A stretch of 64,000 nucleotides of DNA. Source: Candidatus Niyogibacteria bacterium. Its GTDB lineage: Bacteria > Patescibacteriota > Minisyncoccia > HO2-45-28. The stretch spans positions 452,709 through 516,708 of the forward strand of contig CP066691.1 of NCBI GenBank assembly GCA_016432485.1, given 5' to 3'. The translations under genes and the position numbers were made by a program. Shown here in pieces: positions 750-61,877 of the stretch. Position 1 is the stretch's first letter. The number at the start of each line of letters is the position of its first letter. The notes beneath the pieces were generated by a model. It worked only from the letters and a program-made list of their open reading frames with translations. It made no database searches and was not told where the DNA came from.

Positions 750-1433
750 TTAGGGTTCTAAATAATCCTTTTGTTCGCCCAATAATTCTTGGTCTCTTTC
801 GCTCCATTTCAGCATTGAATCAATTAGCTCTTCTGGATTTAAAAATTCTTCTAAAGCATGCCTAGAAATTATTAGATCGTCCTTTTTTCCGACAATACCC
901 AACAAACTGGACCACGGATATCTAAGTAATGCCGCTTTTGCACTTAAAACGCGTTTTATTCTTCCCCCTCGCCATTGGGGATGGGTATAATCTAACGCAT
1001 TAAGATGAATATAATTTACAAGGTGCTGAAAATAACGATCGGAATCAACGCGTATTACTTTAGCTCTTCCTTGAAACAAAACGCCCTTTCTTTTATTACG
1101 AAGATTAAAATACTTAACGTACCCGCCGAATATTTTTCTGACAAACTCGGTTGCGCCTTCGGGAGTTCTGCAACGAAAAAGAATGTGCGCGTGGTTATTC
1201 ATTAGAATATAAGCCAAAACCTCAACCAATTTTTCCTTTTCCGGACGTTGAACGTCCGTATTGTTATTAAAATTTCTAAGCTCCGCCGGCTCCCAAGAGT
1301 TAAAGATGCGCATCCCCAGCAAAAATCTTTGAAAATAAGAGTTGCCAGGAAATATAATTCTCCCGTCAACCCCCTTTTGACAAACATGATAAATCTCTTC
1401 TTCCACAAAAATCATATATTTTATATAGTACAC
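750..1433 (-). CDS. IS200/IS605-family TnpA-like HUH tyrosine transposase (REP-associated tyrosine transposase, RAYT-like); real start probably ATG at ~1415
   Basis: HuH motif 'LMNNHAHILF', 'YHV..G' N-term, C-terminal 'RYFQHLVNYIHLNAL' (catalytic Tyr helix) typical of Y1 transposases; flanked by REP hairpins; ORF as given starts at GTG. Confidence 0.6.
   Translation of the reverse strand: MYYIKYMIFVEEEIYHVCQKGVDGRIIFPGNSYFQRFLLGMRIFNSWEPAELRNFNNNTDVQRPEKEKLVEVLAYILMNNHAHILFRCRTPEGATEFVRKIFGGYVKYFNLRNKRKGVLFQGRAKVIRVDSDRYFQHLVNYIHLNALDYTHPQWRGGRIKRVLSAKAALLRYPWSSLLGIVGKKDDLIISRHALEEFLNPEELIDSMLKWSERDQELLGEQKDYLEP
1242..1260. repeat. REP-like palindrome (opposite orientation, ttgaa loop) lying in-frame inside the RAYT ORF (encodes TDVQRP)
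   Basis: cggacgttgaacgtccg; translation of ORF across it gives NTDVQRPEK. Confidence 0.6.
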
Positions 1434-8188: not shown

Positions 8189-8791
8189 ATGCTGATGAAA
8201 TTATTCGGCTCATTTACACTATTAATCTTTTTTATAATTTTTGGGCCGGTTAACGCGCAAGCGGCGGGATTTGGTATATCGAAATACGGAGAAGCCGGCT
8301 ATGGCTACGGCACAACTACCGGAGAGACTTCTACCGTCCGGATGACCAGTACATCAGGAACGGCCGGCGCCACGACTTCGGTTATGGCCACCACTTCTGA
8401 AATGACCCTTGCCACAACTTCTGAAATGGCCACTGCCACAACTTCTGAAATAACCCTTGCCACAACTTCTGAAATGGCCACTGCCACAACTTCGGTTATG
8501 GCCACCACTTCTGAAATAAGCTCGCCCTCAATTAAACCCGCGGCCGCCCCAGCGCGCATAAAAGATAAAAAAATTTCACCTAAAAACAAAACAACTTCGG
8601 CGCCGGAGCCGACAATAGCTTTAATTTCTACGGAAGAAGAATATAGCACCTCAACAAAAGCCGTTCTGAAATCTCAAATGCCTATTAAAACATTGGTAGT
8701 CGGCATAATCACCAATAGTCTGAAAATAGCGCGGCGCGTGATAAAATATAAACTGTGGCAAGCCGGTCAATTTTTATTTTCAATATTTTAA
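8189..8791 (+). CDS. secreted Thr/Ser-rich tandem-repeat protein (mucin-like)
   Basis: signal peptide; protein repeats ATTSEMTLATTSEMATATTSEITLATTSEMATATTSVMATTSEI mirrored by 18/36-bp DNA tandem repeats at ~8385-8525. Confidence 0.5.
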   Translation: MLMKLFGSFTLLIFFIIFGPVNAQAAGFGISKYGEAGYGYGTTTGETSTVRMTSTSGTAGATTSVMATTSEMTLATTSEMATATTSEITLATTSEMATATTSVMATTSEISSPSIKPAAAPARIKDKKISPKNKTTSAPEPTIALISTEEEYSTSTKAVLKSQMPIKTLVVGIITNSLKIARRVIKYKLWQAGQFLFSIF

Positions 8792-8819
8792 TTATTCGCT
8801 TAGTTGATTAAAATAAAAT

Positions 8820-10700
8820 ATGCCTTATCTGGTTTCAATAATTAAAAGAATAAAAAATAATCCCGCGCCGGCCTTATCAATTTTAATTGTTTTAGCTCTT
8901 CTGATTTTAGGGAACCAGCGCCGGCGGCCGCCCGACCGTCCGCGCTTGCCCGCGGTCATAAAAGACGGGGGGTACGGCCAATTTCTTTTTGCGGCCGCCA
9001 GATTACCCGTGGCGGGAGGCGATGAAAATAATTGGGGCGAAATTCTAAATGAATTTTTGCGAGTCAGCCACGAAGAAAACGGCGAGTTAAAACCGAGCGG
9101 TCTGGGAGATATAACCGGTCTTGGCATAGTAAACGTCAAGGAGTTTGGCGCCAAAGGCGATGGCACTACCGACGACACTTCGGCGATTCAAGCCGCGATT
9201 AATTACCGAGGCAGTGACGGCGGAATGGTTTATCTTCCGCCCGGGGTCTACCGCGTTACGAGTTCTCTGATATTTTTCAATAACAATCATATGAAATTCG
9301 CGGGCGCCGGCAAGAATCTGACGAATATATTGTGGGATGGCGGAGCGGCCGGCCCGGTGCTTGATGTCGGAAGCGTCCGAGACAGTTTTTTTGAGGGCTT
9401 CAGAATAGCCGTCCAGAGCGTTAATCTGAATCTGGCAATAAAAATACATAATGCTTCGGGCGCGACCGTATCCACAAATAATGTTTTCAGGGATATTTAC
9501 ATACACCCCACGGCTTGGGCTATAGGCGGGGGGTCTATCACCGACGGCGTCAAAATCGGAGACGGCACGGACGCCAACAATGATTTTCATAAGTTCATAA
9601 GAGTAAGTATGGGCGATATTCTTCGCGACGGATTTGTCATAGAAAACTCGTCACAAGCAAAACACATACTCTTTGAAGATTCTCATGTGGGCTCCTCAAG
9701 ATACGGCCTGCGGCAAGACGGAGGAGGAAGTTTCAAATGGGTCCGCGGCGGCATGCGCGGCCAGACCACGGCTAATTTCCACCTCGGTCAGCCGACGGAT
9801 GTCATTATGATAGACGGCATTGATGTTGAGCGTTCCGCGTCTTTTATGGACAGTTCCGGCGCCGCGTCAGATTGGGCGACCATAGTGCAGAATGTGCGCT
9901 GGGATTCTCCATCGGAGGCAAACGCGTCGGGTAAAGTTATAGAGTTTAATTTTTCCGGCCCTCTGGTGCTGATAGGAAACAGGTTTCAAAGCGGGACAAC
10001 GGACCTGATTGTAACCGGCAACACATCAACCTCGCTTGTCGCTATCGGTAATTACGTTAAAAATACGGCCACGACCAAATTTTGGTCCGGGTCGTGGAAA
10101 AGCATTGTTGCTCTCGGCAATCTGGTGGGCACTCCGTATACTTATCAAAACGCGGACGCGTCTTTCGGCGCGAATCTTTCCGTGTCCGAGGGTTCTAATT
10201 TTATCGTGCCCTCGGGCAAAATAGGAATCGGGACTTCAAACCCCCAAACCCCGCTGCATATAGTTTCTAATGCCGGAACTAAACTGGCCCTGGATCATCC
10301 CACTGCCGATTCAGGACAGGAAATATCATTTAGAGTCAACGGGGTGGATCGGGGGCTCATACAATGGTTCAACGGCGCTTTTCGTCTGCATCCAGACATA
10401 ACCGTGCTTGATCCGACAAGTCCTCCGTTTGTGGTCAACTCCTCCGGCAATGTCGGCATAGGCATCACCAGTCCAACCAGCAAACTGCATGTTGTGGGCA
10501 AAGCAACCATAACCGGCGGGATTGACCCTCCCTATGTATCATTTTCAGATGAAACGCGAGAAAGCATAATAAAACGCGCCGAAAACATTGAAGAGCACGA
10601 AAAAGTAATGATGTTCTGGAACAGCCAGACCAAAAGTATGGAGGTCTATAATATTCAGGAAGACACTTTTTATTCTGTCAGCGGTGAAAAATTGGACTAG
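8820..10700 (+). CDS. membrane-anchored right-handed beta-helix protein (pectate-lyase-3 / tailspike-like N-terminal domain) with C-terminal tail-fibre-like repeats
   Basis: 'VKEFGAKGDGTTDDTSAIQAAINY...GGMVYLPPGVYRV' motif; C-term repeats 'IGIGTSNPQTPLHIV' / 'VGIGITSPTSKLHVVG'; N-terminal TM. Confidence 0.6.
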   Translation: MPYLVSIIKRIKNNPAPALSILIVLALLILGNQRRRPPDRPRLPAVIKDGGYGQFLFAAARLPVAGGDENNWGEILNEFLRVSHEENGELKPSGLGDITGLGIVNVKEFGAKGDGTTDDTSAIQAAINYRGSDGGMVYLPPGVYRVTSSLIFFNNNHMKFAGAGKNLTNILWDGGAAGPVLDVGSVRDSFFEGFRIAVQSVNLNLAIKIHNASGATVSTNNVFRDIYIHPTAWAIGGGSITDGVKIGDGTDANNDFHKFIRVSMGDILRDGFVIENSSQAKHILFEDSHVGSSRYGLRQDGGGSFKWVRGGMRGQTTANFHLGQPTDVIMIDGIDVERSASFMDSSGAASDWATIVQNVRWDSPSEANASGKVIEFNFSGPLVLIGNRFQSGTTDLIVTGNTSTSLVAIGNYVKNTATTKFWSGSWKSIVALGNLVGTPYTYQNADASFGANLSVSEGSNFIVPSGKIGIGTSNPQTPLHIVSNAGTKLALDHPTADSGQEISFRVNGVDRGLIQWFNGAFRLHPDITVLDPTSPPFVVNSSGNVGIGITSPTSKLHVVGKATITGGIDPPYVSFSDETRESIIKRAENIEEHEKVMMFWNSQTKSMEVYNIQEDTFYSVSGEKLD

Positions 10701-12795: not shown

Positions 12796-15237
12796 ATGCC
12801 GGAACACAATCAAAATAAAATTGAGCCCAGAGACATCGTGCGTGAAATGCGCGAGTCGTACTTAGATTACGCGATGTCGGTTATTGTTTCGCGCGCCTTG
12901 CCCGACGTTCGCGACGGGCTCAAACCCGTTCATCGCCGGATTTTATACACCATGCACGAGATGGGGCTCACTTCCGGCGCCAAATTCAGAAAGTCGGCGG
13001 CCATAACCGGAGATGTCATGGGTAAATATCATCCGCACGGTGATGCGGCAATTTACGACACGCTGGTGCGCATGGCTCAACCGTGGGCAATGCGCTATCC
13101 CCTGATTAACGGTCAAGGTAATTTCGGGAACATTGATGGCGATTCTGCCGCGGCAATGAGGTATACCGAAGCCAGAATGAGCTCAATCTCGTCTGAAATG
13201 CTTAAAGATATTGAAAAAGAAACTGTTGATTTTCAGCCAACTTATGACGGTACAAGGCAAGAGCCAAAACTTCTCCCCTCGGCTATTCCGCAATTATTAC
13301 TGAATGGCTCTTTGGGCATCGCGGTCGGAATGGCCACCAATATCCCGCCGCACAATTTAAACGAAGTCGTAAGCGCTACTCGACATCTGATAGACCACCC
13401 CAAAGCCACAACCGAGGATTTGGTGAAATTCGTGCAAGGCCCAGATTTTCCGACCGGCGGCCTTATTTTTAATAAAGACGAAATCCATCAGGCCTACGCC
13501 ACGGGACGCGGCGGTGTTATCAACCGAGGCGAAGCTGAAATTGTTGAAAAAAAGCAGGGACAGTTTCAAATTATAGTCAGTTCTATCCCTTATCAAGTAA
13601 ATAAATCCGAACTGATAATAAAGATCGCGGAACTTGTGCGCGAGAAAAAGATAGAAGGCATCCGCGACGTCAGAGACGAATCGGACAAAGAAGGTCTGCG
13701 CGTGGTTATTGACCTTAAACAAGACGCTTTCGCCCAAAAAATTCTGAACAACCTATACAAACACACCGATCTTGAACGAACATATCACTTTAACATGCTG
13801 GCGCTGGTGGACGGCATTCAGCCGCAGATATTATCGCTTAAAGGATTTCTTGAAAAATTCATAGAGCATAGGCAAATTATTGTTGAAAGACGAACGCGCT
13901 TTGAACTTAAAAAAACAGAAGACCGCGTCCACATATTAGAGGGCCTGTCGCGCGCCCTTGACCATATAGACGCGATAATTAAAACCATAAAATCTTCAGC
14001 TGATCGTGAAACGGCAAAAAAGAACCTTGTTAAAAAATTCTCTTTTTCGGAGCGGCAGGCCGACGCCATACTGGAAATGCGCCTCTCGGCGCTTGCTAAT
14101 CTTGAGCGCCAAAAAATCACGGACGAATTAAAAGAAAAACAGAAACTCATCCGCGATCTTAAAGCTTTGCTGAAAAACCCGGCGCTTATTCTTGAGGTAA
14201 TCAAAAAAGAGCTTGAGGACATAAAAAATAAATACGGCGACGAACGCAAAACCAAAGTCATTTTAAGCGCGGCCAAATCGTTCAAAGCCGAAGACCTGAT
14301 ACCTGAATCCGAACAGGTAATGGTTCTGACTAAGGGCGGCTATGTCAAAAGGGTCAATCCCGAAGAATATCGCCTGCAAAAACGGGGCGGCAAAGGCTTA
14401 ATAGGCGCGGAGATTAAAGAAGAGGATGTGGTCAGCGTTTTTCTTTCGGCCAACACGCACGACGACCTTCTATTTTTCTCGTCTTTGGGCAAAGTATATC
14501 AAACAAAAATGTATGATGTTCCCGAAGGAAAGCGAACGTCAAAAGGCAAATCCGTGCTGAACATCCTGCCGCTTACGCAAACCGAGGAAATCACATCGGT
14601 CTTGGCGCTTCCCAAAACCAAAAAAGGAGAAAAAATATTTTTGGTTATGATTACGGCGCTTGGTATAATAAAAAAGGTGGAGCCGCATAATTTTGAGGGG
14701 GTCAGGCGTTCCGGCATAATAGCCATTCGCCTTCAAAAAGGAGATTCGCTGAGATGGGTAAGGCTGGCCGGAACCAAAGACCACGTTATTCTTGCCACCA
14801 AACTCGGCAAAGCCATTAGATTTAAAGAATCGGACGCAAGGCCGATGGGCAGGAATGCCGCGGGCGTGAAAGCCATGAGAATCGGCAAAAAAGACGAATT
14901 GATAGGAGCTGACGTCATATCGGCTCAGGAAAAAAACGCTCACCTCTTAGTAATGAGCTCCGAGGGATTCGGCAAAAGGACAAATGTGAAAAATTACAGA
15001 CTGCAGAAACGCGGGGGCTCCGGCGTAAAAACCGCGAAAATAACTTCAAAGACCGGACCATTAATGTCGGCTAAGGTTATTTATCCCGAACTGGAAGAAT
15101 TAATCGCCATTTCCCAAAAAGGCCAGGTCATCAAAACCGAGCTTAAGAGCATCCCCGAACTTGGCCGCGATACCCAGGGAGTGCGAATAATGAGACTGGA
15201 TAATAAAGACGCCATCGCTTCGCTCACATGTTTGTAA
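12796..15237 (+). CDS. gyrA: DNA gyrase subunit A
   Basis: '[26 protein letters not shown]', active-site region, GyrA-box 'QKRGGKG' in CTD. Confidence 0.9.
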
Positions 15238-15755
15238 ATCCGGAACAAACAATAAAATCAATGGGAATAAAATACGGCATGCAGGTGGCCGATTTCGGAA
15301 GTGGAACCGGTTTTTATACCGTCCCCCTGGCCCGGGCAGTCGGGCCTTCAGGAAAAGTTTACGCTTTGGATGCGCAGCCGGAAATGCTGGAGCTTACGCG
15401 CTCAAAGGCCCGCGAATCGCGTCTGCTGAATATAGCGGCAATGCGGGTTGACCTTGAGAGTCCCAGGGGGTCCAAACTTGCCGAAAACACGATGGATTTT
15501 GTACTCATATCCAATATCCTTTTTCAAGCCGAAGACAAGCCGGCACTTTTAAAAGAAGCTTTCCGAATTTTAAAAAATGGGGGCGAGGTCGCGGTGATTG
15601 AATGGAGTTCATTCGGCAGCGCAGCAGGGCCCCGGACAGAAAAAATAGTACCGCGGGAAGCCGCGGAAAAACTCCTGGATGATTCCGGTTTCAAACGAAT
15701 TAAAGAATTTAACGCGGGAGACAATCATTACGGTTTGCTGTACGGCAAACCATAA
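15228..15755 (+). CDS. class I SAM-dependent methyltransferase
   Basis: motif I '[16 protein letters not shown]'. Confidence 0.65.
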
Positions 15756-15850: not shown

Positions 15851-17137
15851 ATGAATACTTTGCAAATCATCATAATCATTTTCTCAATCATCATCGCGGT
15901 GGCGGCTTTGCTGATTTTTTCCGGCATCTTACCGGGTTTCGGACCAAACGCCCCGGGGCAAACCGGAGAAATTTCTTTTTGGGGAACACTGCCTTCCGAA
16001 AATTTGTCGCCGGTTTTGAATGATTTCAGCCAGCGTTTCAAAAATATAAAAGTGGATTATCGCGAAATAGACCCCAAAATTTATATTGAAGAACTGATAA
16101 GCGCTTTGGCTTCTGGTCTTGGTCCGGATGTTTTTCTCCTGCCTCAAGACCAGATAATAAAACAAAAAGATTTGGTGTTCGCGCTTGATTCAACAACTTA
16201 TCCTTTGCGCGTTTTTCGCGACAACTTCGCGGACCTTGCCAATCTTTACGCGCGCCCGGAAGGCATTGTCGGCTTGCCTTTCTACATAGACCCCCTGGTC
16301 CTCTATTGGAATCGCGACCTTTTTAGAAACGCGGGACTGGTGCTTCCGCCGCGGTTCTGGGATGAATTTTCAGAATCAGCCAAAAATTTGACAATTCGCG
16401 ACGGACAGAAAATAACGCAGTCAGGCGCGGCTATGGGCGAATTTTCAAACATTTCGCAGGCAAAAGACATTCTGGCGTTATTGATACTGCAGACGGGCAA
16501 TAAAATAACAAATCCCGAAACTCTTCGCTCTGTTTTTGCCGAACGCGCCGCAGAAGCCTTGAGTCCGGCCGAAACCGCTCTTTTATTTTTTGTGAGTTTT
16601 TCGGACCCGATTAAAGAAACTTATAGCTGGAACAAGGCTCAGGGCGAAGCAATTGAAGCCTTCGGAGGAGGGCGGCTGGCTATGTATATCGGATACGCTT
16701 CCGAAATTGAACAAATCCTGGCTTTAAATCCGCACCTTGATTTTGACGCAAGCGAAGTTCCGCAGATAAGGGGCGGAAAACTAAGCGCCTCATACGGCCG
16801 AAGCTCGGCTTTGGCCATAAGCCGACAAAGCGCAAACAAAACAACGGCTTTTACTTTTATTTATGAATTAACCGGTCTTAATGCCCAAAATTTGCTGGCT
16901 AAAAATTCATTTTTAGCGCCCGCGTTAAGAAGCGCTCTGGCCGAAAAACAGGAAAATCCGATACTTGATGTTTTTTATAAATCGGCCGTAAAATCGCTCG
17001 GCTGGCTGGATCCGGACCCGGTCCAAACTAAAAATATATGGCGGGAAATGACTTCGTCTGTCGTTTCGGGCATCAAAAGAATAAATCAAGCGGTAACGGA
17101 AGCCCAAAGAAAATTTGAAACTTTAATGCCCAGATAA
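15851..17137 (+). CDS. extracellular solute-binding protein (ABC transporter family 1-like), membrane-anchored
   Basis: N-terminal TM, overall SBP-like pattern; weak assignment. Confidence 0.45.
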   Translation: MNTLQIIIIIFSIIIAVAALLIFSGILPGFGPNAPGQTGEISFWGTLPSENLSPVLNDFSQRFKNIKVDYREIDPKIYIEELISALASGLGPDVFLLPQDQIIKQKDLVFALDSTTYPLRVFRDNFADLANLYARPEGIVGLPFYIDPLVLYWNRDLFRNAGLVLPPRFWDEFSESAKNLTIRDGQKITQSGAAMGEFSNISQAKDILALLILQTGNKITNPETLRSVFAERAAEALSPAETALLFFVSFSDPIKETYSWNKAQGEAIEAFGGGRLAMYIGYASEIEQILALNPHLDFDASEVPQIRGGKLSASYGRSSALAISRQSANKTTAFTFIYELTGLNAQNLLAKNSFLAPALRSALAEKQENPILDVFYKSAVKSLGWLDPDPVQTKNIWREMTSSVVSGIKRINQAVTEAQRKFETLMPR

Positions 17138-17144
17138 AACTAAA

Positions 17145-17612
17145 ATGAAACTTTTTAACTTTTCAACTCTTAAACCTTTTAACTCTTTAACCTTTAAACT
17201 TTTTAACCTTTTAACCTTTATCTCTTTGGGCTTTATTGTTGCCGTCTTTTTGCCGTCTTTCGCTTTAGCTCAACAGCCGCTTGTCCCTTGCGGCGGCCCG
17301 GGACAGCCCTGTACTTTCTGCCATTTAATGGAGCTTGCGAATAGAGTCGTCAAGTTTGGCTTCAACTTCCTTATCCTGCCGTTGGCTGCCCTAGGAATAC
17401 TGGCTTCCGGCCTAACCTTGCTTACTGCCGGCGGGTCCCAAACCCAGCTGGAAAAGGGCAAGTCAATGCTCAAAGCCATCATCATCGGCTTCTTTATTGC
17501 CGTTTCGGCTTGGGTTATAATAAATACTATACTCGGAACATTAGTACAAGAAGGGCAGTTCTTTAATCCGTTAACGGAACCATTTCCGGCATGCGTTACC
17601 CCGAGGAACTAG
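17145..17612 (+). CDS. T4SS-pilin-like / TrbC-VirB2-like small membrane protein (paralog 1)
   Basis: signal peptide + two hydrophobic helices, 'AGG...K..IIG..IAVSAW.IIN' pattern shared with next three ORFs. Confidence 0.5.
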   Translation: MKLFNFSTLKPFNSLTFKLFNLLTFISLGFIVAVFLPSFALAQQPLVPCGGPGQPCTFCHLMELANRVVKFGFNFLILPLAALGILASGLTLLTAGGSQTQLEKGKSMLKAIIIGFFIAVSAWVIINTILGTLVQEGQFFNPLTEPFPACVTPRN

Positions 17613-17647
17613 AAGCATTACAAGGAGGCGCTTTTCGTTAAAATTTC

Positions 17648-18016
17648 ATGCAAAAACTTATTCACAAAATATTAAAAGGCATTTTGCTCAAATTGGGCGT
17701 TTTTTCTATAATAATAGAGGTGGCTTTGACAAAATCGGTTTTTGCCCAAACCCTTGAAAATCCGTTGGGCGAGACAAAAACTTTCGGCGAAGTCATTGAA
17801 AACTTGGCTCGGGCCGTCGCCTATGTTGGGGTGCCGATGGCCGGCATTTTCATAATCTATTCCGGATTTTTGTTCGTGACCGCTCGCGGTTCGGAAGACC
17901 AGCTGAAAAAAGCCAAAACAACTTTTTATTGGACAATCATCGGAACTATCCTGATTGTGGGCGCCTGGGCAATTGCTTCTGCTCTTAATGAATTCGCGAC
18001 AGGTTTACAAGGATAA
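17648..18016 (+). CDS. T4SS-pilin-like small membrane protein (paralog 2)
   Basis: same architecture: 'ARG...KAK...W.IIGTILIVGAWAI'. Confidence 0.5.
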   Translation: MQKLIHKILKGILLKLGVFSIIIEVALTKSVFAQTLENPLGETKTFGEVIENLARAVAYVGVPMAGIFIIYSGFLFVTARGSEDQLKKAKTTFYWTIIGTILIVGAWAIASALNEFATGLQG

Positions 18017-18115
18017 CTTTTAACGGCTAGCCATCGATTAAACATCGGGGGTTAGCGGTTGAAAATTATAAATCAAATAAAGGTCGTTAAATTTTAAAAC
18101 TTTATAAGACAAATT

Positions 18116-18472
18116 ATGGAAAAAATCAAAAAAATTATGATTGGCGTCGGCAGCGCGGGAATATTAGGCCTGCCCACGCTGGTCTTTGCCGTAACAACAT
18201 TTGATGCTTTTCTCACAAACATTAAAACCCAGATTAACAGAATTATACCAATAATCACAGCAATTGCCGCTTTAGTTTTCTTATGGGGGGTCGTAACTTA
18301 TATAATGTCCGCCGGAGACGAAGAAAAAAGAAAAGAAGCGAGACAATTCATAATCTGGGGTCTTGTTGGATTTGCCATCATTGTTGGTATTTGGGGGCTG
18401 ATTAATATAGCTGTAAACGCCCTTGGAATAGAAACTGGTGGAACTATTACGCCTCCAAGTGTCAGATTCTAA
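18116..18472 (+). CDS. T4SS-pilin-like small membrane protein (paralog 3)
   Basis: 'SAGDEEKRKEARQFIIWGLVGFAIIVGIWGLIN'. Confidence 0.5.
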   Translation: MEKIKKIMIGVGSAGILGLPTLVFAVTTFDAFLTNIKTQINRIIPIITAIAALVFLWGVVTYIMSAGDEEKRKEARQFIIWGLVGFAIIVGIWGLINIAVNALGIETGGTITPPSVRF

Positions 18473-18481
18473 TAAAAATCG

Positions 18482-18730
18482 GTGACTTCCAATAATTTCC
18501 TGCAAAAACTAGCCGATCAGATAATAAACCCGCTAATTGTCATTTTCATCGGAATCGCTTTAATTGTTTTTATCTGGGGCATTGTGGAATTCATCGCCAA
18601 AGCCGGAAGCGAGGATGCCAAAACCACCGGTAAGAAACACATGCTTTGGGGGATTATCGGAATGGCGATAATGATAGGCGTAGCGGGTATAATCAATATC
18701 CTTTCAAGTCTGTTTGAAAGCGGCCAGTAA
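18482..18730 (+). CDS. T4SS-pilin-like small membrane protein (paralog 4, no cleavable signal)
   Basis: 'KAGSEDAKTTGKKHMLWGIIGMAIMIGVAGIIN'. Confidence 0.5.
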   Translation: MTSNNFLQKLADQIINPLIVIFIGIALIVFIWGIVEFIAKAGSEDAKTTGKKHMLWGIIGMAIMIGVAGIINILSSLFESGQ

Positions 18731-18753
18731 ATAAATAAACGGTGAAACAAACC

Positions 18754-18779
18754 AAAAAACCCGACACATCGGGTTTTTT
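18754..18779. terminator. bidirectional Rho-independent terminator between pilin-like array (+) and rnhA (-)
   Basis: aaaaaacccgacacatcgggtttttt. Confidence 0.6.
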
Positions 18780-18783
18780 GGTT

Positions 18784-19227
18784 TTAAAATATTTTTCCTT
18801 GTTCTTTTTTGTCTAGTTCAATATTTACCAATCGGTCGGCTTCGCGGTTTTTTTCGCGAGGCACCGCGAAAAAAGAAATTTCTTCAAAATCCTGCTTTAA
18901 ATTCCAAATTTTAATAAAAAGCGGAAAAAGACGCTCTTCTTCAATTTTATATCTGGCGTTTAGCTGGTTGTACACCAATTCAGAATCCAGATATATCTCA
19001 ACTTCAGAGTTTTTAATCTTTTCCTTGCCAAAAATCTGTTTAGCTTTTTTCATAGCGAAAATAACCGCCTCGTATTCGGCTTCGTTATTCGTTCGCGTCC
19101 CTAAAAATTCGCTATATTTTTTGTCCTTGCCTCCTCCGCGGATAACGACACCCAAAGCGGAGGGCCCCGGATTGCCCCTGGATCCTCCGTCAGCGTTTAT
19201 GGTAATTTTTAATTCGTTTTTTCGCAT
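18784..19227 (-). CDS. rnhA: ribonuclease HI-like
   Basis: 'INADGGSRGNPGPSALGVV' and C-terminal 'REKNREADRL' RNase H motifs. Confidence 0.6.
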   Translation of the reverse strand: MRKNELKITINADGGSRGNPGPSALGVVIRGGGKDKKYSEFLGTRTNNEAEYEAVIFAMKKAKQIFGKEKIKNSEVEIYLDSELVYNQLNARYKIEEERLFPLFIKIWNLKQDFEEISFFAVPREKNREADRLVNIELDKKEQGKIF

Positions 19228-27876: not shown

Positions 27877-29142
27877 TCACTCGTAACTTCTCATAACAAT
27901 CTGCGCCTCAACTTGTTTAATGGTTTCAAGAACAACAGAAACCACAATCAAAAGAGCGGTGCCGCCGATAGTCAGCGTCACGAGGCCGGTAATAGCGCGC
28001 ATGGCGAGCGGCAAAACCGCGATCGCGCCCAAAAACAAAGCGCCTATTAAAGTAATGCGGTTTAAAATCTTGTATAAAAATTCCGAGGTCGGGCGTCCGG
28101 GTCTTATTCCGGGCACGAACGCTCCCGATTTCTGGAGGTTGCCGGATATGGCGTCCGGGTCAAAAGTTACGGCCGTGTAAAAATAAGTGAAAAGAAAAAC
28201 CAAAAGAAAATAAAGGCCGGCGTAAACCCACGGATTATTCAAAAAATTTAAAAGCGCGGAACTTATTACTCTAAGAGTATTATTATCAATACTGGACATA
28301 AAATTAACTATCATCTGAGGAAAAAGGAGGATAGATAGGGCAAAAATTATCGGTATGACTCCGGCCTGATTCACCCTTAAAGGCAGGTAGGTGGATATTC
28401 CGCCGTACATCTTGGAACCGCGGATACGGCGGGCATAAGATATCGGCACCGGCCTCTGGCCTTCGGTTATGATTACCACAGCGGCAATAATTAAAACCGC
28501 GGCAACCACGAATCCAAAAATAACGGGCAGTTGATAAATATCGGAGGCAAAAATAGTCCGGCTCAAAGACTGCGGCACACCGGATATGATACCCGCGAAA
28601 ATAAGAATAGAAACCCCGTTTCCAAAACCGTATTCCGATATGAGCTCCCCCAACCACATCAAAAGAACGGACCCCGCAGTCACAATTATTATATTTGTTA
28701 CTTCACCAAAAAGAGAAAGCTCGCCTAAAACGCCTTGTCGGGATAAAAGTGTTAAAAGCCCGAAACCCTGCAAAGCAGCCAAAGGGGCGGCGGCCAGACG
28801 CGAATATTGATTAAATTTCTTTCGGCCGGCCTCGCCTTCTTCCTGATACATCTCTTTAAATCGGGGAATCATCATTGTTAAAAGCTGCATTATAATTGAA
28901 GCAGTAATATAGGGACCGACTCCGAGCATCATTACCGAAAGATTATCCATAGCTCCGCCCGAAAAAATATTCAGCAAGCCGAAAAATTGATTACCGCCGA
29001 AAAACGCCGCAAGCCTTTCGTGATCCACGCCCGGAATTGGAATGGCGGCCCCCAGCCTGAAAACGATAAGAATCGCCAAAACAAAAAGTATTTTTTTCCT
29101 TAAATCCGGGTCGGTAAAAATTAATTTTATTTTTTGCCACAT
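27877..29142 (-). CDS. secY: preprotein translocase subunit SecY
   Basis: 10-TM pattern, 'GNGVSILIFAGI', synteny after rplO. Confidence 0.9.
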   Translation of the reverse strand: MWQKIKLIFTDPDLRKKILFVLAILIVFRLGAAIPIPGVDHERLAAFFGGNQFFGLLNIFSGGAMDNLSVMMLGVGPYITASIIMQLLTMMIPRFKEMYQEEGEAGRKKFNQYSRLAAAPLAALQGFGLLTLLSRQGVLGELSLFGEVTNIIIVTAGSVLLMWLGELISEYGFGNGVSILIFAGIISGVPQSLSRTIFASDIYQLPVIFGFVVAAVLIIAAVVIITEGQRPVPISYARRIRGSKMYGGISTYLPLRVNQAGVIPIIFALSILLFPQMIVNFMSSIDNNTLRVISSALLNFLNNPWVYAGLYFLLVFLFTYFYTAVTFDPDAISGNLQKSGAFVPGIRPGRPTSEFLYKILNRITLIGALFLGAIAVLPLAMRAITGLVTLTIGGTALLIVVSVVLETIKQVEAQIVMRSYE

Positions 29143-50412: not shown

Positions 50413-51246
50413 GTGGAAATGCTCAAAAGCAATGAATTTCCAAACGGACAAAAGGAGCATCTTACCTATTACAAGGCGCTGTTTGGTTATATCGTCATCG
50501 GGACCATTTTTATTTTTCTTGTAAGCGTCGGCATCGCGCAAACACTTCTTGCCTGGAACACCTCGGTATTTGTCAGCACCATGCTAATGTTCGCGGTAAT
50601 GGTTTTTTATTTCAGAAAAACCTTGAAAAGATCGGGGTTTATGGGTCTCGAAAAAGACGCTTTGGACTTGGTAAGAAAAAAGTTGGCGGAGACGGAAACG
50701 GAAAAACTGCCCGATTGCCATGAACTTATTTTTGAAACCGACGCTTTTTTTGAAAGATATTCCGCGACGGAATTTAACGGCACTTCTGTCGTCGACTATT
50801 TCAGGGACTTAGGAAAAAGAATCAAGGCGGTCGGCGCGCTTGCGGGCAAACACAAAAAAGAACCCGTGCTCACAGATGAATTAAAATTCTGTTTCTATGC
50901 CAATATGGAACGGCTTATCAAACCAACGGTCAATGGCGCTAGAAAACTTCTTCTTTTCGGTTTTCTGGGAACGGTCACGGGAATTCTGTTAATCGGTGTG
51001 GGCATGCAATTCGGGGAAAGCGCGCAACAGGCTCAGCTCATAGCGAAAGAACTGATCGGCGGACTTGGGGTGGCGGCAATAACAACCATTTTAGGCCTTG
51101 TCGGAAACTTGTTCTTGAGTTCTATTTACGAGCAGCATGAAGACATAAGAGATCGGATTCTCGCGGAACTTGCGCGCCTGACAAGTATCTACGGATTGGA
51201 TCTGTGCTCGCCTCCCGAACCAGAGGAGGAAATGGCGAATGGATAA
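50413..51246 (+). CDS. MotA/TolQ/ExbB-family proton channel-like protein
   Basis: C-terminal 'FGFLGTVTGILLIGVGMQF...LGVAAITTILGLVGNLF' matches family signature helices. Confidence 0.5.
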   Translation: MEMLKSNEFPNGQKEHLTYYKALFGYIVIGTIFIFLVSVGIAQTLLAWNTSVFVSTMLMFAVMVFYFRKTLKRSGFMGLEKDALDLVRKKLAETETEKLPDCHELIFETDAFFERYSATEFNGTSVVDYFRDLGKRIKAVGALAGKHKKEPVLTDELKFCFYANMERLIKPTVNGARKLLLFGFLGTVTGILLIGVGMQFGESAQQAQLIAKELIGGLGVAAITTILGLVGNLFLSSIYEQHEDIRDRILAELARLTSIYGLDLCSPPEPEEEMANG

Positions 51247-51895
51247 ATGGAGAATTTTTTCAAGAAGAGAATCCGACCATGCTATCGTCCAGGGAGACCT
51301 GACGCTTCTTATAGCCATTATTCCTTTTATGCTTGTGTTTTTGTTTCTAATTCACCTAAACGACGCCTCAAGCAAAGACCAAGACAAAAATCCCTTTGAA
51401 GTCACGGTTGAATGGGACGGAAAATCGCCGGTTGATATTGATACCTGGACTTGGTGCACCAACCCCTCGACGGAACTTTGGGAAATTGTCAGTTACCAAA
51501 ACAGAAAGGGCAAATTTCTTCTTCTGGACCAGGACGACAGAGGTTACAAAGACGAAAGTCCTCTTGACGACAAAAATAAAGAGAAAGTAAAATCGCTAGG
51601 TAACCGTCTGCCGGCTGCCCTTTGCGGGGTAAATCTGCATGTCTACGGCACAAACGGCGGAACTCTGCCCATTGAAGTAACTGTGTCTGCAGTCCTTTTC
51701 AAGGGGCACGAGACCGGAAAACAAATTGTGCTTTTGGACCAGAAAAAATTTACCCTAAGCAGAGTTGGAGAAGAAATTACGACAACCAGTTTTGAAATTG
51801 ACACGGAAGGCAAATTAATGGTAGGAAGTAATAAGACGACAATCCAGATGCGTTGCGCCAGTTCTTCTGGTCGCAACTGTACTCCTGCCTGGTGA
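51239..51895 (+). CDS. ExbD/TolR/MotB-like single-TM partner protein with extended periplasmic domain
   Basis: N-term 'RRESDHAIVQGDLTLLIAIIPFMLVFLFLI' resembles ExbD/TolR TM segment; 4-bp overlap with preceding gene. Confidence 0.4.
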   Translation: MDKWRIFSRRESDHAIVQGDLTLLIAIIPFMLVFLFLIHLNDASSKDQDKNPFEVTVEWDGKSPVDIDTWTWCTNPSTELWEIVSYQNRKGKFLLLDQDDRGYKDESPLDDKNKEKVKSLGNRLPAALCGVNLHVYGTNGGTLPIEVTVSAVLFKGHETGKQIVLLDQKKFTLSRVGEEITTTSFEIDTEGKLMVGSNKTTIQMRCASSSGRNCTPAW

Positions 51896-51905
51896 GGGAC
51901 GGAAA

Positions 51906-52628
51906 ATGGACGCACCGCTCTTCGGCGTGCTAAAAACTACTTTCAGAATTGTTTTTTATTCAGAGCCATGGTTTGAATGGTTGGTGCCTATTTTGACGAC
52001 TCTTGTAATGTTGTACTGGCTCTTTATAATTCTGCACCGGACACATGCTTCAAGAAATTTTAAAGTTTCCATGGCGATCTTATCTCTGCCGATCTCTTTC
52101 ATGCTGTTAAACATACCTAATTTCTATAAATATATGAACGCGGGCGCGCCAGACAAAAACTGCCCGGAAATCAACATCAATCCGTTAACCAAAGAAATTG
52201 AACCGATTAAATACGATTATTTAGCACAGCATGTGGTGCCGGGTCCGGTAGAATCGGGATTCGCCGACTTGTTTCTTAAACAGCACGAAATCTTTGGGCA
52301 AAGTTTGAACGTCCAAAACTCTCATGTTTGCCGTCTCCCTTACGATGAGCGAACAAGAATGCTCCTGCAAAATTTGCAAGAAGCAAAAAGACTTCAGGGG
52401 GAGGCGGCTAAAAGAGCCGGCGTGCCTGTCGAATCGGCCTCGGAATTCGGAAACATTCGGATTACTCTGCCGGGTTCTGCAGAAAGCAGAGCGAAAATGG
52501 ATTCTGCTTTACGCAAAAAGGGCGACAAAGAACAAAAGGGTGAACGAGATCGTGATGAAAGTTTCGGTCGCGCCGAATTCAAGGCGCCAAAGACAAATCT
52601 TGTCCCAAAGACGGAAACGGGCCGGTGA
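51906..52628 (+). CDS. membrane protein, hypothetical (third gene of MotA/ExbD-like operon)
   Basis: 3 hydrophobic helices then charged C-terminal tail. Confidence 0.35.
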   Translation: MDAPLFGVLKTTFRIVFYSEPWFEWLVPILTTLVMLYWLFIILHRTHASRNFKVSMAILSLPISFMLLNIPNFYKYMNAGAPDKNCPEININPLTKEIEPIKYDYLAQHVVPGPVESGFADLFLKQHEIFGQSLNVQNSHVCRLPYDERTRMLLQNLQEAKRLQGEAAKRAGVPVESASEFGNIRITLPGSAESRAKMDSALRKKGDKEQKGERDRDESFGRAEFKAPKTNLVPKTETGR

Positions 52629-61785: not shown

Positions 61786-61877
61786 ACTTCCGGAGCCCAA
61801 TTTTGGGCTCTTTTTCTTTTGCGTTATGTGGATAACTAACGCTTTTACACTTTCGATTTATTTTCTATAATATCACT

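What the first reader, a model, noticed from the sequence alone, without database searches (positions are those of the whole stretch)
17145..18730. Tandem array of four paralogous T4SS-pilin-like (TrbC/VirB2-like) small membrane proteins
Four consecutive same-strand ORFs of 82-155 aa share the same architecture. Each has a signal peptide or N-terminal hydrophobic segment and two hydrophobic helices separated by a short charged loop ('AGG/ARG/AGD/AGS-E..K..'), then a 'W.IIG.I.IVGAW.I.N' helix. This is the signature of the T4SS-pilin family that is expanded in CPR bacteria. No VirB4/VirB6 or PilB/PilC genes are in the window, so the array is detached from an obvious secretion or pilus machinery.
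Basis: partly seen in the sequence, partly recalled or inferred. Interest (0 to 1): 0.55.

Follow-up and report, generated by a model that had tools for sequence, protein, structure and literature searches.

The report
Sugar-binding protein plus VirB2-like pilin operon
The four small genes are real members of the type IV secretion pilin family that ultra-small (CPR/Patescibacteria) bacteria are already known to carry in arrays, but here they form a deeply conserved operon with a membrane-anchored sugar-binding protein, a link that the papers I could search do not mention.

Summary
Four same-strand ORFs (17145-18730) are paralogous two-helix membrane proteins, and all four pass Pfam's curated cutoff for T4SS_pilin (PF18895). 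P2 also passes the TrbC/VirB2 cutoff. The source is a Candidatus Niyogibacteria (class Paceibacteria) chromosome. No VirB4, VirB6 or VirD4 gene lies in the window.

Such VirB2-like arrays are already published for Patescibacteria (441 arrays in 383 assemblies; essential in Southlakia epibionticum), so the array itself is not new.

- In all 72 related species genomes with enough downstream sequence, an ortholog of this protein is followed directly by 1-8 pilin genes.
- Two independent assemblies carry it fused in frame to a P1-type pilin.
- The array is ordered. A Cys-loop "head" pilin (P1) comes first, then the canonical TrbC-like P2, then the copy-variable P3. A short P4 comes last and lacks a signal peptide.
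- Orthologs diverge about as fast as neighbouring genes, which argues against an antigenic-variation cassette.

Most likely this is a specialised pilin set working with a surface glycan-binding partner and assembled by a T4SS encoded elsewhere. That last step is inferred, not shown.

The parts
12796..15237 (+). gyrA. A conserved upstream neighbour whose stop overlaps the methyltransferase start. Context only, not claimed as a functional part.
   Evidence: ORF. GyrA lies upstream of the SBP in about 66 of 79 related loci. DNA_topoisoIV/DNA_gyraseA_C annotation at the same position in L008 and L012.
15228..15755 (+). UbiE-like class I SAM methyltransferase (175 aa, no TM segment). A conserved neighbour; whether it has any role in the system is unknown.
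   Evidence: Pfam Ubie_methyltran 67.9 bits. Present directly upstream of the SBP in about 68 of 79 loci. The gap to the SBP gene is 95 nt here but 4 nt, 17 nt or overlapping in L008, L013 and L007.
15851..17137 (+). Membrane-anchored family-1 solute-binding protein (428 aa): N-terminal TM helix, disordered linker, MalE-type oligosaccharide-binding fold. It is the first gene of the SBP-pilin unit.
   Evidence: SBP_bac_1 71.5 bits and SBP_bac_8 68.3 bits. AlphaFold pLDDT 86.2, pTM 0.84, helix 3-24. Foldseek best hits are oligosaccharide-binding SBPs, E 4e-24 to 1e-21. Followed by pilin genes in 72 of 72 loci. Fused to a pilin in P0224 and P0241. No ABC ATPase nearby.
17145..17612 (+). P1: 'head' pilin (155 aa). 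Signal peptide, a Cys-flanked variable loop (VPCG...PC.FC), the hairpin, and a C-terminal tail carrying a fourth conserved Cys.
   Evidence: PF18895 29.2 bits. C49, C56, C59 and C150 are conserved in orthologs. The first-position gene best matches P1 in 43 of 57 arrays.
17148..17220 (+). In-frame 24-nt x 3 tandem repeat encoding the n-region of the P1 signal peptide (KLFNFSTL/KPFNSLTF/KLFNLLTF).
   Evidence: TRF: period 24, 3.0 copies, 83% matches. Orthologs have one or two copies.
17648..18016 (+). P2: the most canonical TrbC/VirB2-like pilin (122 aa), with a conserved NPL motif just after the signal-peptide cleavage site.
   Evidence: PF18895 46.1 bits and PF04956 31.5 bits, both above cutoff. 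39 of 39 orthologs match both families and 37 of 39 match NF045849. AlphaFold hairpin.
18018..18064 (+). Strong RNA hairpin directly after the P2 stop codon, with no U tract. Candidate intra-operon attenuator or mRNA stabiliser.
   Evidence: -25.1 kcal/mol, z -5.65. Conserved in L008 (-29.2 kcal/mol, z -6.55), where the inner stem differs on both sides but stays paired. Absent in L013.
18080..18108 (+). AAGGTCGT motif (18080-18087) and a TATAAG -10-like hexamer (18103-18108). Candidate internal promoter for P3-P4.
   Evidence: 14 of 29 + strand AAGGTCGT copies in the 80 loci lie in array-internal gaps (1.77% of the bases). 12 of 13 lie 25-53 nt before a P3-type gene. The window copy lies 36 nt before the P3 ATG. 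The promoter function is inferred.
18116..18472 (+). P3: the fast-evolving, copy-number-variable pilin type (118 aa; other gene callers start it at 18137, giving 111 aa).
   Evidence: PF18895 32.1 bits; NF045849 39.3 bits against a cutoff of 40. 52% and 39% identity to the orthologs, against 59-70% for the SBP. Mid-array genes are mostly P3-type, and double-domain forms exist.
18482..18730 (+). P4: short terminal pilin without a signal peptide (82 aa, GTG start).
   Evidence: PF18895 30.5 bits. Only two hydrophobic segments. The last gene best matches P4 in 48 of 57 arrays (median 95 aa) and has two hydrophobic segments in 46 of 57.
18749..18784 (.). Bidirectional intrinsic terminator between P4 and the convergent RNase H gene. 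It marks the end of the operon.
   Evidence: -22.1 kcal/mol, z -5.14, A-run/stem/U-run. An equivalent hairpin follows the L008 array (-31.6 kcal/mol, z -7.5).

Best explanation
The locus is a chromosomal operon conserved across the class Paceibacteria. It encodes a membrane-anchored MalE-type oligosaccharide-binding protein (SBP) followed by an ordered set of four specialised VirB2/TrbC-superfamily (PF18895) hairpin pilins.

Shown here: family membership, hairpin topology, operon layout with tight gene spacing, strict SBP-pilin adjacency, natural SBP::pilin fusions, conservation of the order of pilin types, and ordinary rates of divergence.

Inferred mechanism:
- P1-P3 are exported by Sec and cleaved by signal peptidase. 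P4 inserts without a leader.
- All four adopt an N-out/C-out hairpin with the positively charged loop in the cytoplasm.
- A VirB4/VirB6/VirB3/TrsD-type T4SS encoded elsewhere in the genome extracts them into a surface filament or pseudopilus.
- P1 carries a variable disulfide-type loop, and in other lineages an Ig-like, FN3-like or SBP domain in the same place. It is therefore the exposed 'head' subunit.
- P2 and/or P3 are the bulk subunits.
- The SBP works next to or on P1 as the module that binds a glycan from the host cell surface, either for recognition or for capture and uptake.
For: Family membership: all four proteins exceed the PF18895 cutoff and P2 exceeds the TrbC cutoff. 39 of 39 P2 orthologs match both families, and 37 of 39 match the Mycoplasma ICE pilin-like family NF045849.

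Topology: hydropathy and the AlphaFold hairpin. All four conserved Cys of P1 lie in the N- and C-terminal segments, which are predicted to be on the same outer side.

Operon layout: gaps of 7, 35, 99 and 9 nt, and a strong terminator only after P4.

SBP coupling:
- 72 of 72 loci have pilin ORFs directly downstream, and in 55 of 72 the first one starts within 50 nt.
- 332 pilin hits lie in arrays against 14 elsewhere in the loci.
- The fusion proteins P0224 and P0241 come from independent JGI and ENA assemblies.
- The SBP's TM anchor is as conserved as its globular domain (0.61 against 0.58).
- No ABC ATPase is in the window or the 80 loci.

Ordered types: the first gene is P1-like in 43 of 57 arrays and the last is P4-like in 48 of 57. 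First-position genes with Big_5 or FN3-like N-terminal domains occur in L023, L059 and L075.

SBP ligand class: Foldseek hits are to manno-, malto-, cello- and sophoro-oligosaccharide binders.

T4SS elsewhere: both Niyogibacteria genomes in the published table are VirB4-positive, and Paceibacteria T4SS clusters are described there (PMC12102498).

Family function and expression: the pilin array is essential in S. epibionticum (PMC10633639). T4SS pilins are among the most highly expressed secreted-protein genes in cultured Paceibacteria (PMC10936435).
Against: No T4SS machinery is in the window or within 8-10 kb of any related array. I could not establish that the source genome has VirB4; attempts to extend beyond the window failed.

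No significant sequence match was found to any solved conjugative pilin. The fold search on the hairpin was uninformative: the best E was 0.7, to ATP synthase subunit c.

Published Paceibacteria T4SS clusters already carry their own single pilin next to VirB4, so this array might not be their substrate.

Nobody has shown a filament for this family in any Patescibacterium. The SBP is TM-anchored, which fits a membrane complex as well as it fits a filament partner.
Confidence: 0.55

Rival explanations
1. T4SS-independent membrane complex. The hairpin proteins stay in the cytoplasmic membrane as a hetero-oligomer that docks the TM-anchored SBP. Together they form an unconventional SBP-dependent uptake or signalling device, with the hairpins taking the place of the missing ABC permease.
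For: SBP-pilin adjacency is strict and fusions exist. The SBP's TM anchor is conserved. No ABC ATPase lies nearby. The arrays are always far from VirB4 where the context is known. Paceibacteria T4SS clusters have their own pilin. The hairpin fold is as close to membrane rotor subunits as to anything else.
Against: There is no precedent for VirB2-like proteins acting as a permease. P2-type members match TrbC/VirB2 profiles robustly. In other Patescibacteria classes the same family sits inside T4SS clusters. Large Ig-like or FN3-like head domains on first-position members suit an exposed filament or adhesin better than a channel.
Confidence: 0.2
2. Antigenic or host-range variation cassette. The paralogs are interchangeable variants of one pilin, kept to vary the surface or to match different host strains, as proposed for Patescibacteria arrays and for Bartonella and Anaplasma virB2 paralogs.
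For: Pairwise identity within the array is low (22-40%), as in published arrays (PMC12102498). The Cys-flanked loop of P1 is hypervariable even between 88%-identical proteins. P3-type genes vary in copy number and evolve fastest.
Against: One-to-one orthologs keep the same order across genomes. P1, P2 and P4 diverge no faster than the neighbouring SBP and methyltransferase: 68, 67 and 73% against 70 and 66% with L008. The types differ in architecture (Cys loop, NPL motif, lack of a leader), so they are not interchangeable.
Confidence: 0.1
3. Not pilins at all: type IV pilus or competence pseudopilins, phage holins or coat proteins, or spurious ORFs.
For: Small two-TM proteins are easy to misassign. 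P3 gives a weak hit to Inovirus Coat_B (E 0.0056, below cutoff).
Against: No class III (G|FTLIE) prepilin motif occurs in the array, and the window count is at chance level (3 against 2.8 expected). No PHROG family hit is better than E 0.0078. The context is housekeeping chromosome. The orthologs are conserved across the class.
Confidence: 0.03

Closest known systems
VirB2-like pilin arrays of Patescibacteria (Quinonero-Coronel et al. 2025, PMC12102498), including the essential six-gene array of Southlakia epibionticum ML1 (Wang et al. 2023, PMC10633639)
   Same: Same Pfam family (PF18895/PF04956). Tandem same-strand paralogs (2-11 genes) with low mutual identity (mean 25%, maximum 54% published; 22-40% here). 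Chromosomal, with no relaxase context.
   Different: The published exemplars in Saccharimonadia and Microgenomatia lie inside or next to the virB4 cluster. This array is far from any T4SS gene and is instead coupled to an SBP gene. Its paralogs fall into ordered, orthologous types. The SBP link is not mentioned in those papers.
TrbC/VirB2 conjugative pilins of diderm T4SSs (RP4 TrbC, Ti VirB2, F TraA)
   Same: A long leader followed by a two-helix hairpin with a short basic loop. P2 passes the TrbC Pfam cutoff.
   Different: No detectable sequence similarity to solved pilus subunits. The host is a monoderm. There are several specialised paralogs rather than one major pilin. P1 carries conserved Cys in both its N- and C-terminal tails where TrbC and VirB2 are cyclised head to tail (the cyclisation is from established knowledge; a disulfide in P1 is only inferred).
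Small two-TM proteins of monoderm MPF-FATA systems: pCF10 PrgF and the Mycoplasma ICE Mbov_0395 pilin-like family (NF045849)
   Same: Leaderless or short hairpin proteins of T4SSs from monoderms. P3 scores 39.3 bits against the NF045849 cutoff of 40, and 37 of 39 P2 orthologs match it. In a closed Campbellbacteria genome the published table calls three consecutive genes far from virB4 'FATA_PrgF', probably this same array.
   Different: NF045849 is not reached at its curated cutoff. The direct P4-type profile against PrgF gives only 10.9 bits and 3% hhalign probability, so homology is unproven.
Major/minor pilin sets of type IV pili and T2SS/Com pseudopili (analogy only)
   Same: An ordered operon of several divergent paralogs with distinct roles. 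One subunit carries a bulky or disulfide-looped exposed module.
   Different: An unrelated fold and a different signal peptide class. No G|FTLIE motif.
Plasmid-encoded pheromone-binding SBPs PrgZ/TraC of enterococcal conjugative plasmids (analogy only)
   Same: An SBP gene encoded alongside T4SS-related genes. TraC is annotated on pCF10.
   Different: Those are family-5 peptide binders that feed a chromosomal Opp permease for regulation (established knowledge). Here the SBP is a family-1 sugar-type protein, translationally coupled to the pilins and sometimes fused to them.

Membership tests
Pfam PF18895 T4SS_pilin | Profile score at or above the curated gathering cutoff (26.6 bits) | tested here: met
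   P1 29.2, P2 46.1, P3 32.1, P4 30.5 bits.
Pfam PF18895 T4SS_pilin | Two hydrophobic helices joined by a short charged loop (helical hairpin) | tested here: met
   Hydropathy for all four. AlphaFold model of P2: helices 46-78 and 83-121, pLDDT 86-92.
Pfam PF18895 T4SS_pilin | Cleavable N-terminal signal peptide before the hairpin | tested here: inconclusive
   Present in P1-P3 (ALA|QQ, VFA|QT, VFA|VT). Absent in P4, and in 46 of 57 last-position orthologs. Cleavage itself was not tested.
T4SS pilin in the functional sense | Encoded with, or dependent on, VirB4/VirB6-type machinery | tested here: not met
   None in the 64-kb window or within 8-10 kb of related arrays. The genome-wide question is a separate row.
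T4SS pilin in the functional sense | A VirB4-type T4SS exists somewhere in the same genome | not testable with these tools
   Extension beyond the window failed. Both Niyogibacteria genomes in PMC12102498 Table S1 are VirB4-positive.
T4SS pilin in the functional sense | Polymerises into an extracellular filament | not testable with these tools
   Needs cryo-ET, proteomics or immunolabelling.
Pfam PF04956 TrbC/VirB2 | Profile score at or above the cutoff (27.9 bits) | tested here: inconclusive
   Met by P2 only (31.5 bits). P4 gives E 0.82; P1 and P3 give no hit. 39 of 39 P2 orthologs match at E <= 1e-3.
Pfam PF04956 TrbC/VirB2 | Recognisable similarity to experimentally solved conjugative pilins | tested here: not met
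   A profile of 39 P2-type sequences against all PDB sequences gave a best E of 0.41, to unrelated proteins. Foldseek gave no hit at E <= 0.001.
NCBIfam NF045849 (Mbov_0395 pilin-like conjugal transfer protein) | Score at or above the curated cutoff (40 bits) | tested here: not met
   P3 39.3, P2 27.6, P4 24.9, P1 16.9 bits. This shows relatedness, not membership.
MPF-FATA PrgF | Significant profile similarity to pCF10 PrgF | tested here: inconclusive
   10.9 bits against a shuffle maximum of 6.3, but hhalign probability of 0.3-3%.
Patescibacteria VirB2 array (as defined in PMC12102498) | Two to eleven PF18895/PF04956 genes in tandem, or separated by one gene, with low mutual identity | tested here: met
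   Four adjacent genes with 22-40% pairwise identity.
Type IV (T4P/Com) pilins | Class III signal peptide with the G|F(T/S)L(I/L)E motif | tested here: not met
   Absent from all four proteins. The window-wide pattern count is at chance level.
Family-1 extracellular solute-binding protein (the upstream gene) | SBP_bac_1/SBP_bac_8 profile and a two-lobed MalE-type fold | tested here: met
   71.5 and 68.3 bits. pTM 0.84. Foldseek E 4e-24 to oligosaccharide-binding SBPs.
Family-1 extracellular solute-binding protein (the upstream gene) | Encoded with ABC permease and ATPase partners | tested here: not met
   No Walker A + LSGGQ ORF in the window. The only such ORF in the 80 loci is a ClpB-like protein. 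Genome-wide presence was not testable.

The most novel reading that the evidence does not exclude
The SBP-pilin operon is a distinct functional module of Paceibacteria and not a spare set of T4SS pilins. In this reading a glycan-binding SBP is built onto, or docks with, a heteromeric VirB2-like filament or membrane assembly. The SBP recognises host cell-surface oligosaccharides, or captures them and hands them on for uptake. That would be the first case of a solute-binding protein mechanistically coupled to VirB2-type pilins. It would also give concrete support to the idea that Patescibacteria T4SS components work in import or host recognition and not in conjugation.
Probability: 0.3. Interest if true: 0.75.

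Novelty: new variant of a known kind. Interest (0 to 1): 0.5.

Why it matters
What the essential T4SS and its unexpected pilins do in Patescibacteria is an acknowledged open question (PMC11665869, PMC12857230). Uptake from the host has been proposed only as speculation.

A solute-binding protein is the hallmark of import or ligand capture. Finding one strictly coupled to an ordered VirB2-like pilin set across at least hundreds of species genomes, and occasionally fused to a pilin, gives that speculation a specific and testable molecular handle: the SBP's ligand, SBP-P1 contact, and dependence on VirB4.

The result also refines the published 'antigenic variation' reading of these arrays. The paralogs are specialised, ordered, and conserved one to one.

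It further suggests that some arrays were counted in the literature as PrgF-like and not VirB2-like. That would bear on whether Patescibacteria pilins were co-opted from diderm systems or are native to the monoderm MPF-FATA lineage.

Tried and rejected
(1) Fold search of the P2 hairpin against the PDB. There were no significant hits; a bare hairpin cannot be told apart from other hairpins, so I dropped this as evidence either way.

(2) P2-type profile against all PDB sequences. Nothing significant.

(3) Direct profile comparison with pCF10 PrgF. Inconclusive.

(4) Looking for VirB4 in the source genome.
- The paper's supplementary tables do not hold this assembly, and the Niyogibacteria rows of Table S3 were cut off in the stored copy.
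- Three attempts to extend beyond the window ends by exact protein look-up failed.

(5) Sigma-70 promoter and terminator scan of the operon. Counts equalled the shuffled expectation, so I did not use its sites. The terminator and the hairpin were established by folding instead.

(6) Phage origin (PHROGs) and type IV prepilin motifs. Both rejected.

(7) Methyltransferase as a pilin-modifying enzyme. I considered this because the gene is conserved next to the SBP. It is cytoplasmic and translationally coupled to gyrA, and nothing links it to the pilins, so it is left as a neighbour of unknown relevance.

(8) Literature search for a described SBP-pilin link in Patescibacteria. None was found in the searchable library. 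That is not proof that none exists.
Full report
**1. The observation**

Four consecutive + strand ORFs lie exactly where stated:
- P1, 17145-17612, 155 aa
- P2, 17648-18016, 122 aa
- P3, 18116-18472, 118 aa
- P4, 18482-18730, 82 aa, GTG start

They are paralogs. P3 and P4 are 40% identical (E 1e-17), P1 and P2 are 34% identical (E 1e-10), and the remaining pairs give E 3e-5 to 2e-2.

P1-P3 have a signal-peptide-like segment with plausible AXA-type cleavage sites, followed by two hydrophobic helices. P4 has only the two helices. It begins exactly where the mature domain of the others begins, and the P3 stop codon lies 9 nt upstream. Everything else holds.

**2. Family assignment**

All four exceed the Pfam gathering score of PF18895 T4SS_pilin (29.2, 46.1, 32.1 and 30.5 bits against 26.6). 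P2 also exceeds that of PF04956 TrbC/VirB2 (31.5 against 27.9).

The NCBIfam model for the Mycoplasma ICE 'Mbov_0395 pilin-like conjugal transfer protein' is approached but not reached (P3 39.3 bits against 40). Across 39 P2-type orthologs, all match PF18895 and TrbC, and 37 match the Mycoplasma family.

An AlphaFold model of P2 is a helical hairpin (helices 46-78 and 83-121, pLDDT 86-92) behind a signal-peptide helix.

Tests that went nowhere:
- A P2-type profile finds no solved pilin in the PDB.
- Foldseek on the hairpin is uninformative (best E 0.7).
- pCF10 PrgF is not significantly similar.

Phage families and type IV prepilin motifs are excluded.

**3. Organism and window**

P1 and P4 are recorded in NCBI as HYY55_02495 and HYY55_02510 of a Candidatus Niyogibacteria MAG, on a contig of 836,981 bp.

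The window is housekeeping chromosome: gyrA, RecJ-like, RecA, FtsK, EF-G, ribosomal proteins, tRNA synthetase and similar genes. Every ORF of 425 aa or more was scanned except the presumed SecY (27877-29142, 421 aa). None is VirB4, VirD4, PilB or PilC. The 'detached' part of the finding therefore holds for the window.

**4. What is already known**

Tandem VirB2-like arrays in Patescibacteria are published.
- Quinonero-Coronel et al. (PMC12102498) report 441 arrays of 2-11 genes in 383 assemblies, with mean identity 25% and maximum 54%. They found pilins near virB4 in only 1135 of 1948 assemblies.
- Wang et al. (PMC10633639) showed that the array inside the T4SS cluster of Southlakia epibionticum is essential.
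- A 2025 review highlights this as the first possible pilus of a monoderm T4SS and speculates about uptake from the host (PMC12857230).
- Kuroda et al. (PMC10936435) found T4SS pilins among the five most highly expressed signal-peptide genes of unknown function in cultured Paceibacteria.

The array as such is a new member of a known kind.

**5.

The ORF at 15851-17137 ends 7 nt before the P1 start codon. It is a family-1 solute-binding protein (SBP_bac_1 71.5 bits). It has an N-terminal TM helix (residues 3-24), a disordered linker and a confident MalE-type fold (pLDDT 86, pTM 0.84). Its closest solved relatives bind manno-, malto-, cyclo-, sophoro- and cello-oligosaccharides (E 4e-24 to 1e-21).

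Syntenic loci in other Niyogibacteria and in more distant relatives all show methyltransferase, SBP, then 4-7 pilins, even where the downstream genes differ.

I used a 16-sequence SBP alignment to pull loci from the species-representative genome collection. At least 581 loci encode a relative, and the best 80 were kept. They span Giovannoni-, Terry-, Campbell-, Kaiser-, Nomura-, Taylor-, Zambryski-, Wolfe- and Lloydbacteria, among others.

With a pilin HMM built from the homologs:
- 72 of 72 loci with at least 600 bp downstream have a pilin ORF on the same strand within 1.5 kb of the SBP stop.
- In 55 of 72 the first pilin starts within 50 nt, often with overlapping stop and start codons.
- Array size is 1-8 genes, with a mode of 5.
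- 332 pilin hits lie in these arrays, against 14 elsewhere in the 80 loci. Most of those 14 appear to be array members that my gap rule excluded.

No ABC ATPase lies in the window or next to any of these SBPs. No VirB4 or VirD4 lies there either. The SBP's TM anchor (consensus AVLIFAGILPGF) is as conserved as the globular domain (0.61 against 0.58 majority fraction), which is unusual for a passive anchor.

Two 88%-identical proteins from independent JGI and ENA assemblies (P0224 of 549 aa, P0241 of 558 aa) are in-frame fusions of this SBP to a P1-type pilin. Both are followed by P2-type and further pilins.

**6. The array is an ordered set of specialised paralogs**

In 57 complete arrays:
- The first gene best matches P1 in 43 (P2 in the other 14).
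- The last gene best matches P4 in 48. Its median length is 95 aa, and it has only two hydrophobic segments in 46.
- The middle genes are P3-, P2- or P4-like.

P1-type proteins carry a [LIV]VPCG...C.F motif, which is two Cys flanking a loop of very variable length just before helix 1. In Niyogibacteria there are two further conserved Cys, one at the start of helix 1 and one in the C-terminal tail (C49, C56, C59, C150). Between the two fusion proteins almost all divergence, including an indel, lies inside this loop.

In other lineages the first-position gene carries a large N-terminal extracellular domain in the same place: Big_5 Ig-like in L023, FN3-like in L059 and L075, and the SBP itself in the fusions. 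This fits an N-out topology and an exposed 'head' role for P1.

Identity to the orthologs in two syntenic genomes:

| Protein | vs L008 | vs L013 |
|---|---|---|
| GyrA | 89% | not compared (intein-interrupted) |
| Methyltransferase | 66% | 63% |
| SBP | 70% | 59% |
| P1 | 68% | 53% |
| P2 | 67% | 63% |
| P3 | 52% | 39% |
| P4 | 73% | 62% |

Only P3 evolves faster than its neighbours. P3 is also the type that varies in copy number and occurs as double-hairpin proteins of 237-277 aa. This pattern argues against interchangeable antigenic variants, except possibly for P3 and the P1 loop.

**7. Operon signals**

- Gene gaps are 7, 35, 99 and 9 nt.
- A strong bidirectional terminator follows P4 (18749-18784; -22.1 kcal/mol, z -5.1).
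- Directly after P2 there is a strong hairpin without a U tract (18018-18064; -25.1 kcal/mol, z -5.7). It is conserved in L008, where the inner stem differs on both sides but stays paired, and is absent in L013.
- Across the arrays, long gaps lie almost only upstream of P3-type genes.
- The motif AAGGTCGT is about 27-fold enriched in those gaps and lies 25-53 nt before a P3-type start codon. The window copy is at 18080, 36 nt before the P3 ATG, with a TATAAG hexamer at 18103-18108.

I read this as a probable internal promoter for P3-P4 plus an attenuator or stabiliser after P2. Both readings are inferences.

**8. Mechanism**

Shown: family membership, topology, operon layout, SBP coupling and fusion, positional orthology, and ordinary divergence rates.

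Inferred: P1-P3 are exported by Sec and cleaved, while P4 inserts without a leader (its net-positive loop predicts the same N-out/C-out orientation). A T4SS encoded elsewhere assembles them. Relatives do have one: both Niyogibacteria genomes in the published table are VirB4-positive, and Paceibacteria clusters of VirB6-VirB3-TrsD-VirB4 plus one pilin are listed there. P1 is the exposed head, and the SBP is its glycan-binding partner.

The main rival is that the hairpins and the SBP form a T4SS-independent membrane complex. It is supported by the constant distance from virB4, and by the fact that Paceibacteria T4SS clusters carry their own pilin.

I could not determine whether the source genome has VirB4.

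**9. A side result on classification**

In the closed Campbellbacteria genome GCA_000990745.1, the published table lists three consecutive genes (174-176) as FATA_PrgF, far from VirB4 (gene 619). Campbellbacteria loci in my set carry SBP-linked arrays of four genes (L019, L042), so these are probably the same genes. If so, part of this family was counted as PrgF-like and not VirB2-like. That would bear on whether the pilins are native to the monoderm MPF-FATA lineage. I did not verify this.

**10. Verdict**

The array itself is a known kind of feature. The conserved coupling to an orphan oligosaccharide-type SBP, the natural fusions and the ordered paralog types are features I did not find described. 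They make the locus a new variant of a known kind, of moderate interest.

Noticed in passing
window 17148-17220: An in-frame 24-nt x 3 tandem repeat encodes the n-region of the P1 signal peptide. Orthologs carry one or two copies, so the leader length varies by repeat copy number.
   Followed up: partly
window 18018-18064; L008 10343-10394: A strong hairpin without a U tract lies directly after the P2 stop codon. It is conserved between two Niyogibacteria, and its inner stem differs on both sides while staying paired. It may be an intra-operon attenuator or mRNA stabiliser.
   Followed up: partly
window 18080-18087; array-internal gaps of L016, L022, L028, L029, L044, L050, L055, L063, L076, L077, L083, L094: The motif AAGGTCGT is about 27-fold enriched in gaps inside the arrays and lies 25-53 nt upstream of P3-type pilin genes. 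It may be the -35 region of an internal promoter.
   Followed up: partly
array-internal gaps of L020, L027, L038, L040, L049, L053, L055, L063, L079, L089, L092, L093 (not in the window's array; window copies at 61827 and 34390, - strand): T[TA]ATCCACA, identical to the DnaA-box consensus, is about 26-fold enriched in the intergenic gaps upstream of P3-type pilin genes: 21 of 46 copies lie in 1.8% of the sequence. Whether DnaA or another regulator binds it is unknown.
   Followed up: partly
L012 9163-9876; L014 8803-9636: 'Double pilins' of 237-277 aa consist of two P3-type hairpins in one polypeptide. Many proteins of about 236-244 aa in the homolog list are probably the same kind.
   Followed up: partly
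L031 1878-2482: A HicB/HicA-like toxin-antitoxin pair (judged from the sequences only) is inserted between the SBP gene and the pilin array in one genome.
   Followed up: no
L013 4033-7596: In this relative, the gyrA gene upstream of the operon is interrupted by an intein (Intein_splicing domain; product of 1187 aa).
   Followed up: no
window 61878-63380 (+): A single 500-aa ORF combines a LexA DNA-binding domain, a Peptidase_S24 domain and an N6_N4 DNA methylase domain. This is an unusual repressor-methyltransferase fusion.
   Followed up: no
window 50413-52628 (+): Three overlapping or adjacent membrane-protein ORFs (277, 218 and 240 aa) have no Pfam hit. By eye, the C-terminal TM region of the first resembles MotA/ExbB-type proteins. 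They lie next to an S41 peptidase and FtsK.
   Followed up: no
window 8189-10700 (+): A signal-peptide protein with Thr/Ser-rich 'ATTSEM' repeats (200 aa) is followed by a 626-aa TM-anchored protein with a pectate-lyase-like domain. Both are probably cell-surface proteins.
   Followed up: no
window 750-1433 (-): An ORF with an IS200-like Y1 transposase domain (24.8 bits against a cutoff of 23).
   Followed up: no
window ~58000: Cumulative GC skew reaches its minimum near 58 kb, and gene orientation switches there from mostly - strand on the left to + strand on the right. This might mark a replication origin or a skew switch. No dnaA gene was identified in the window.
   Followed up: no
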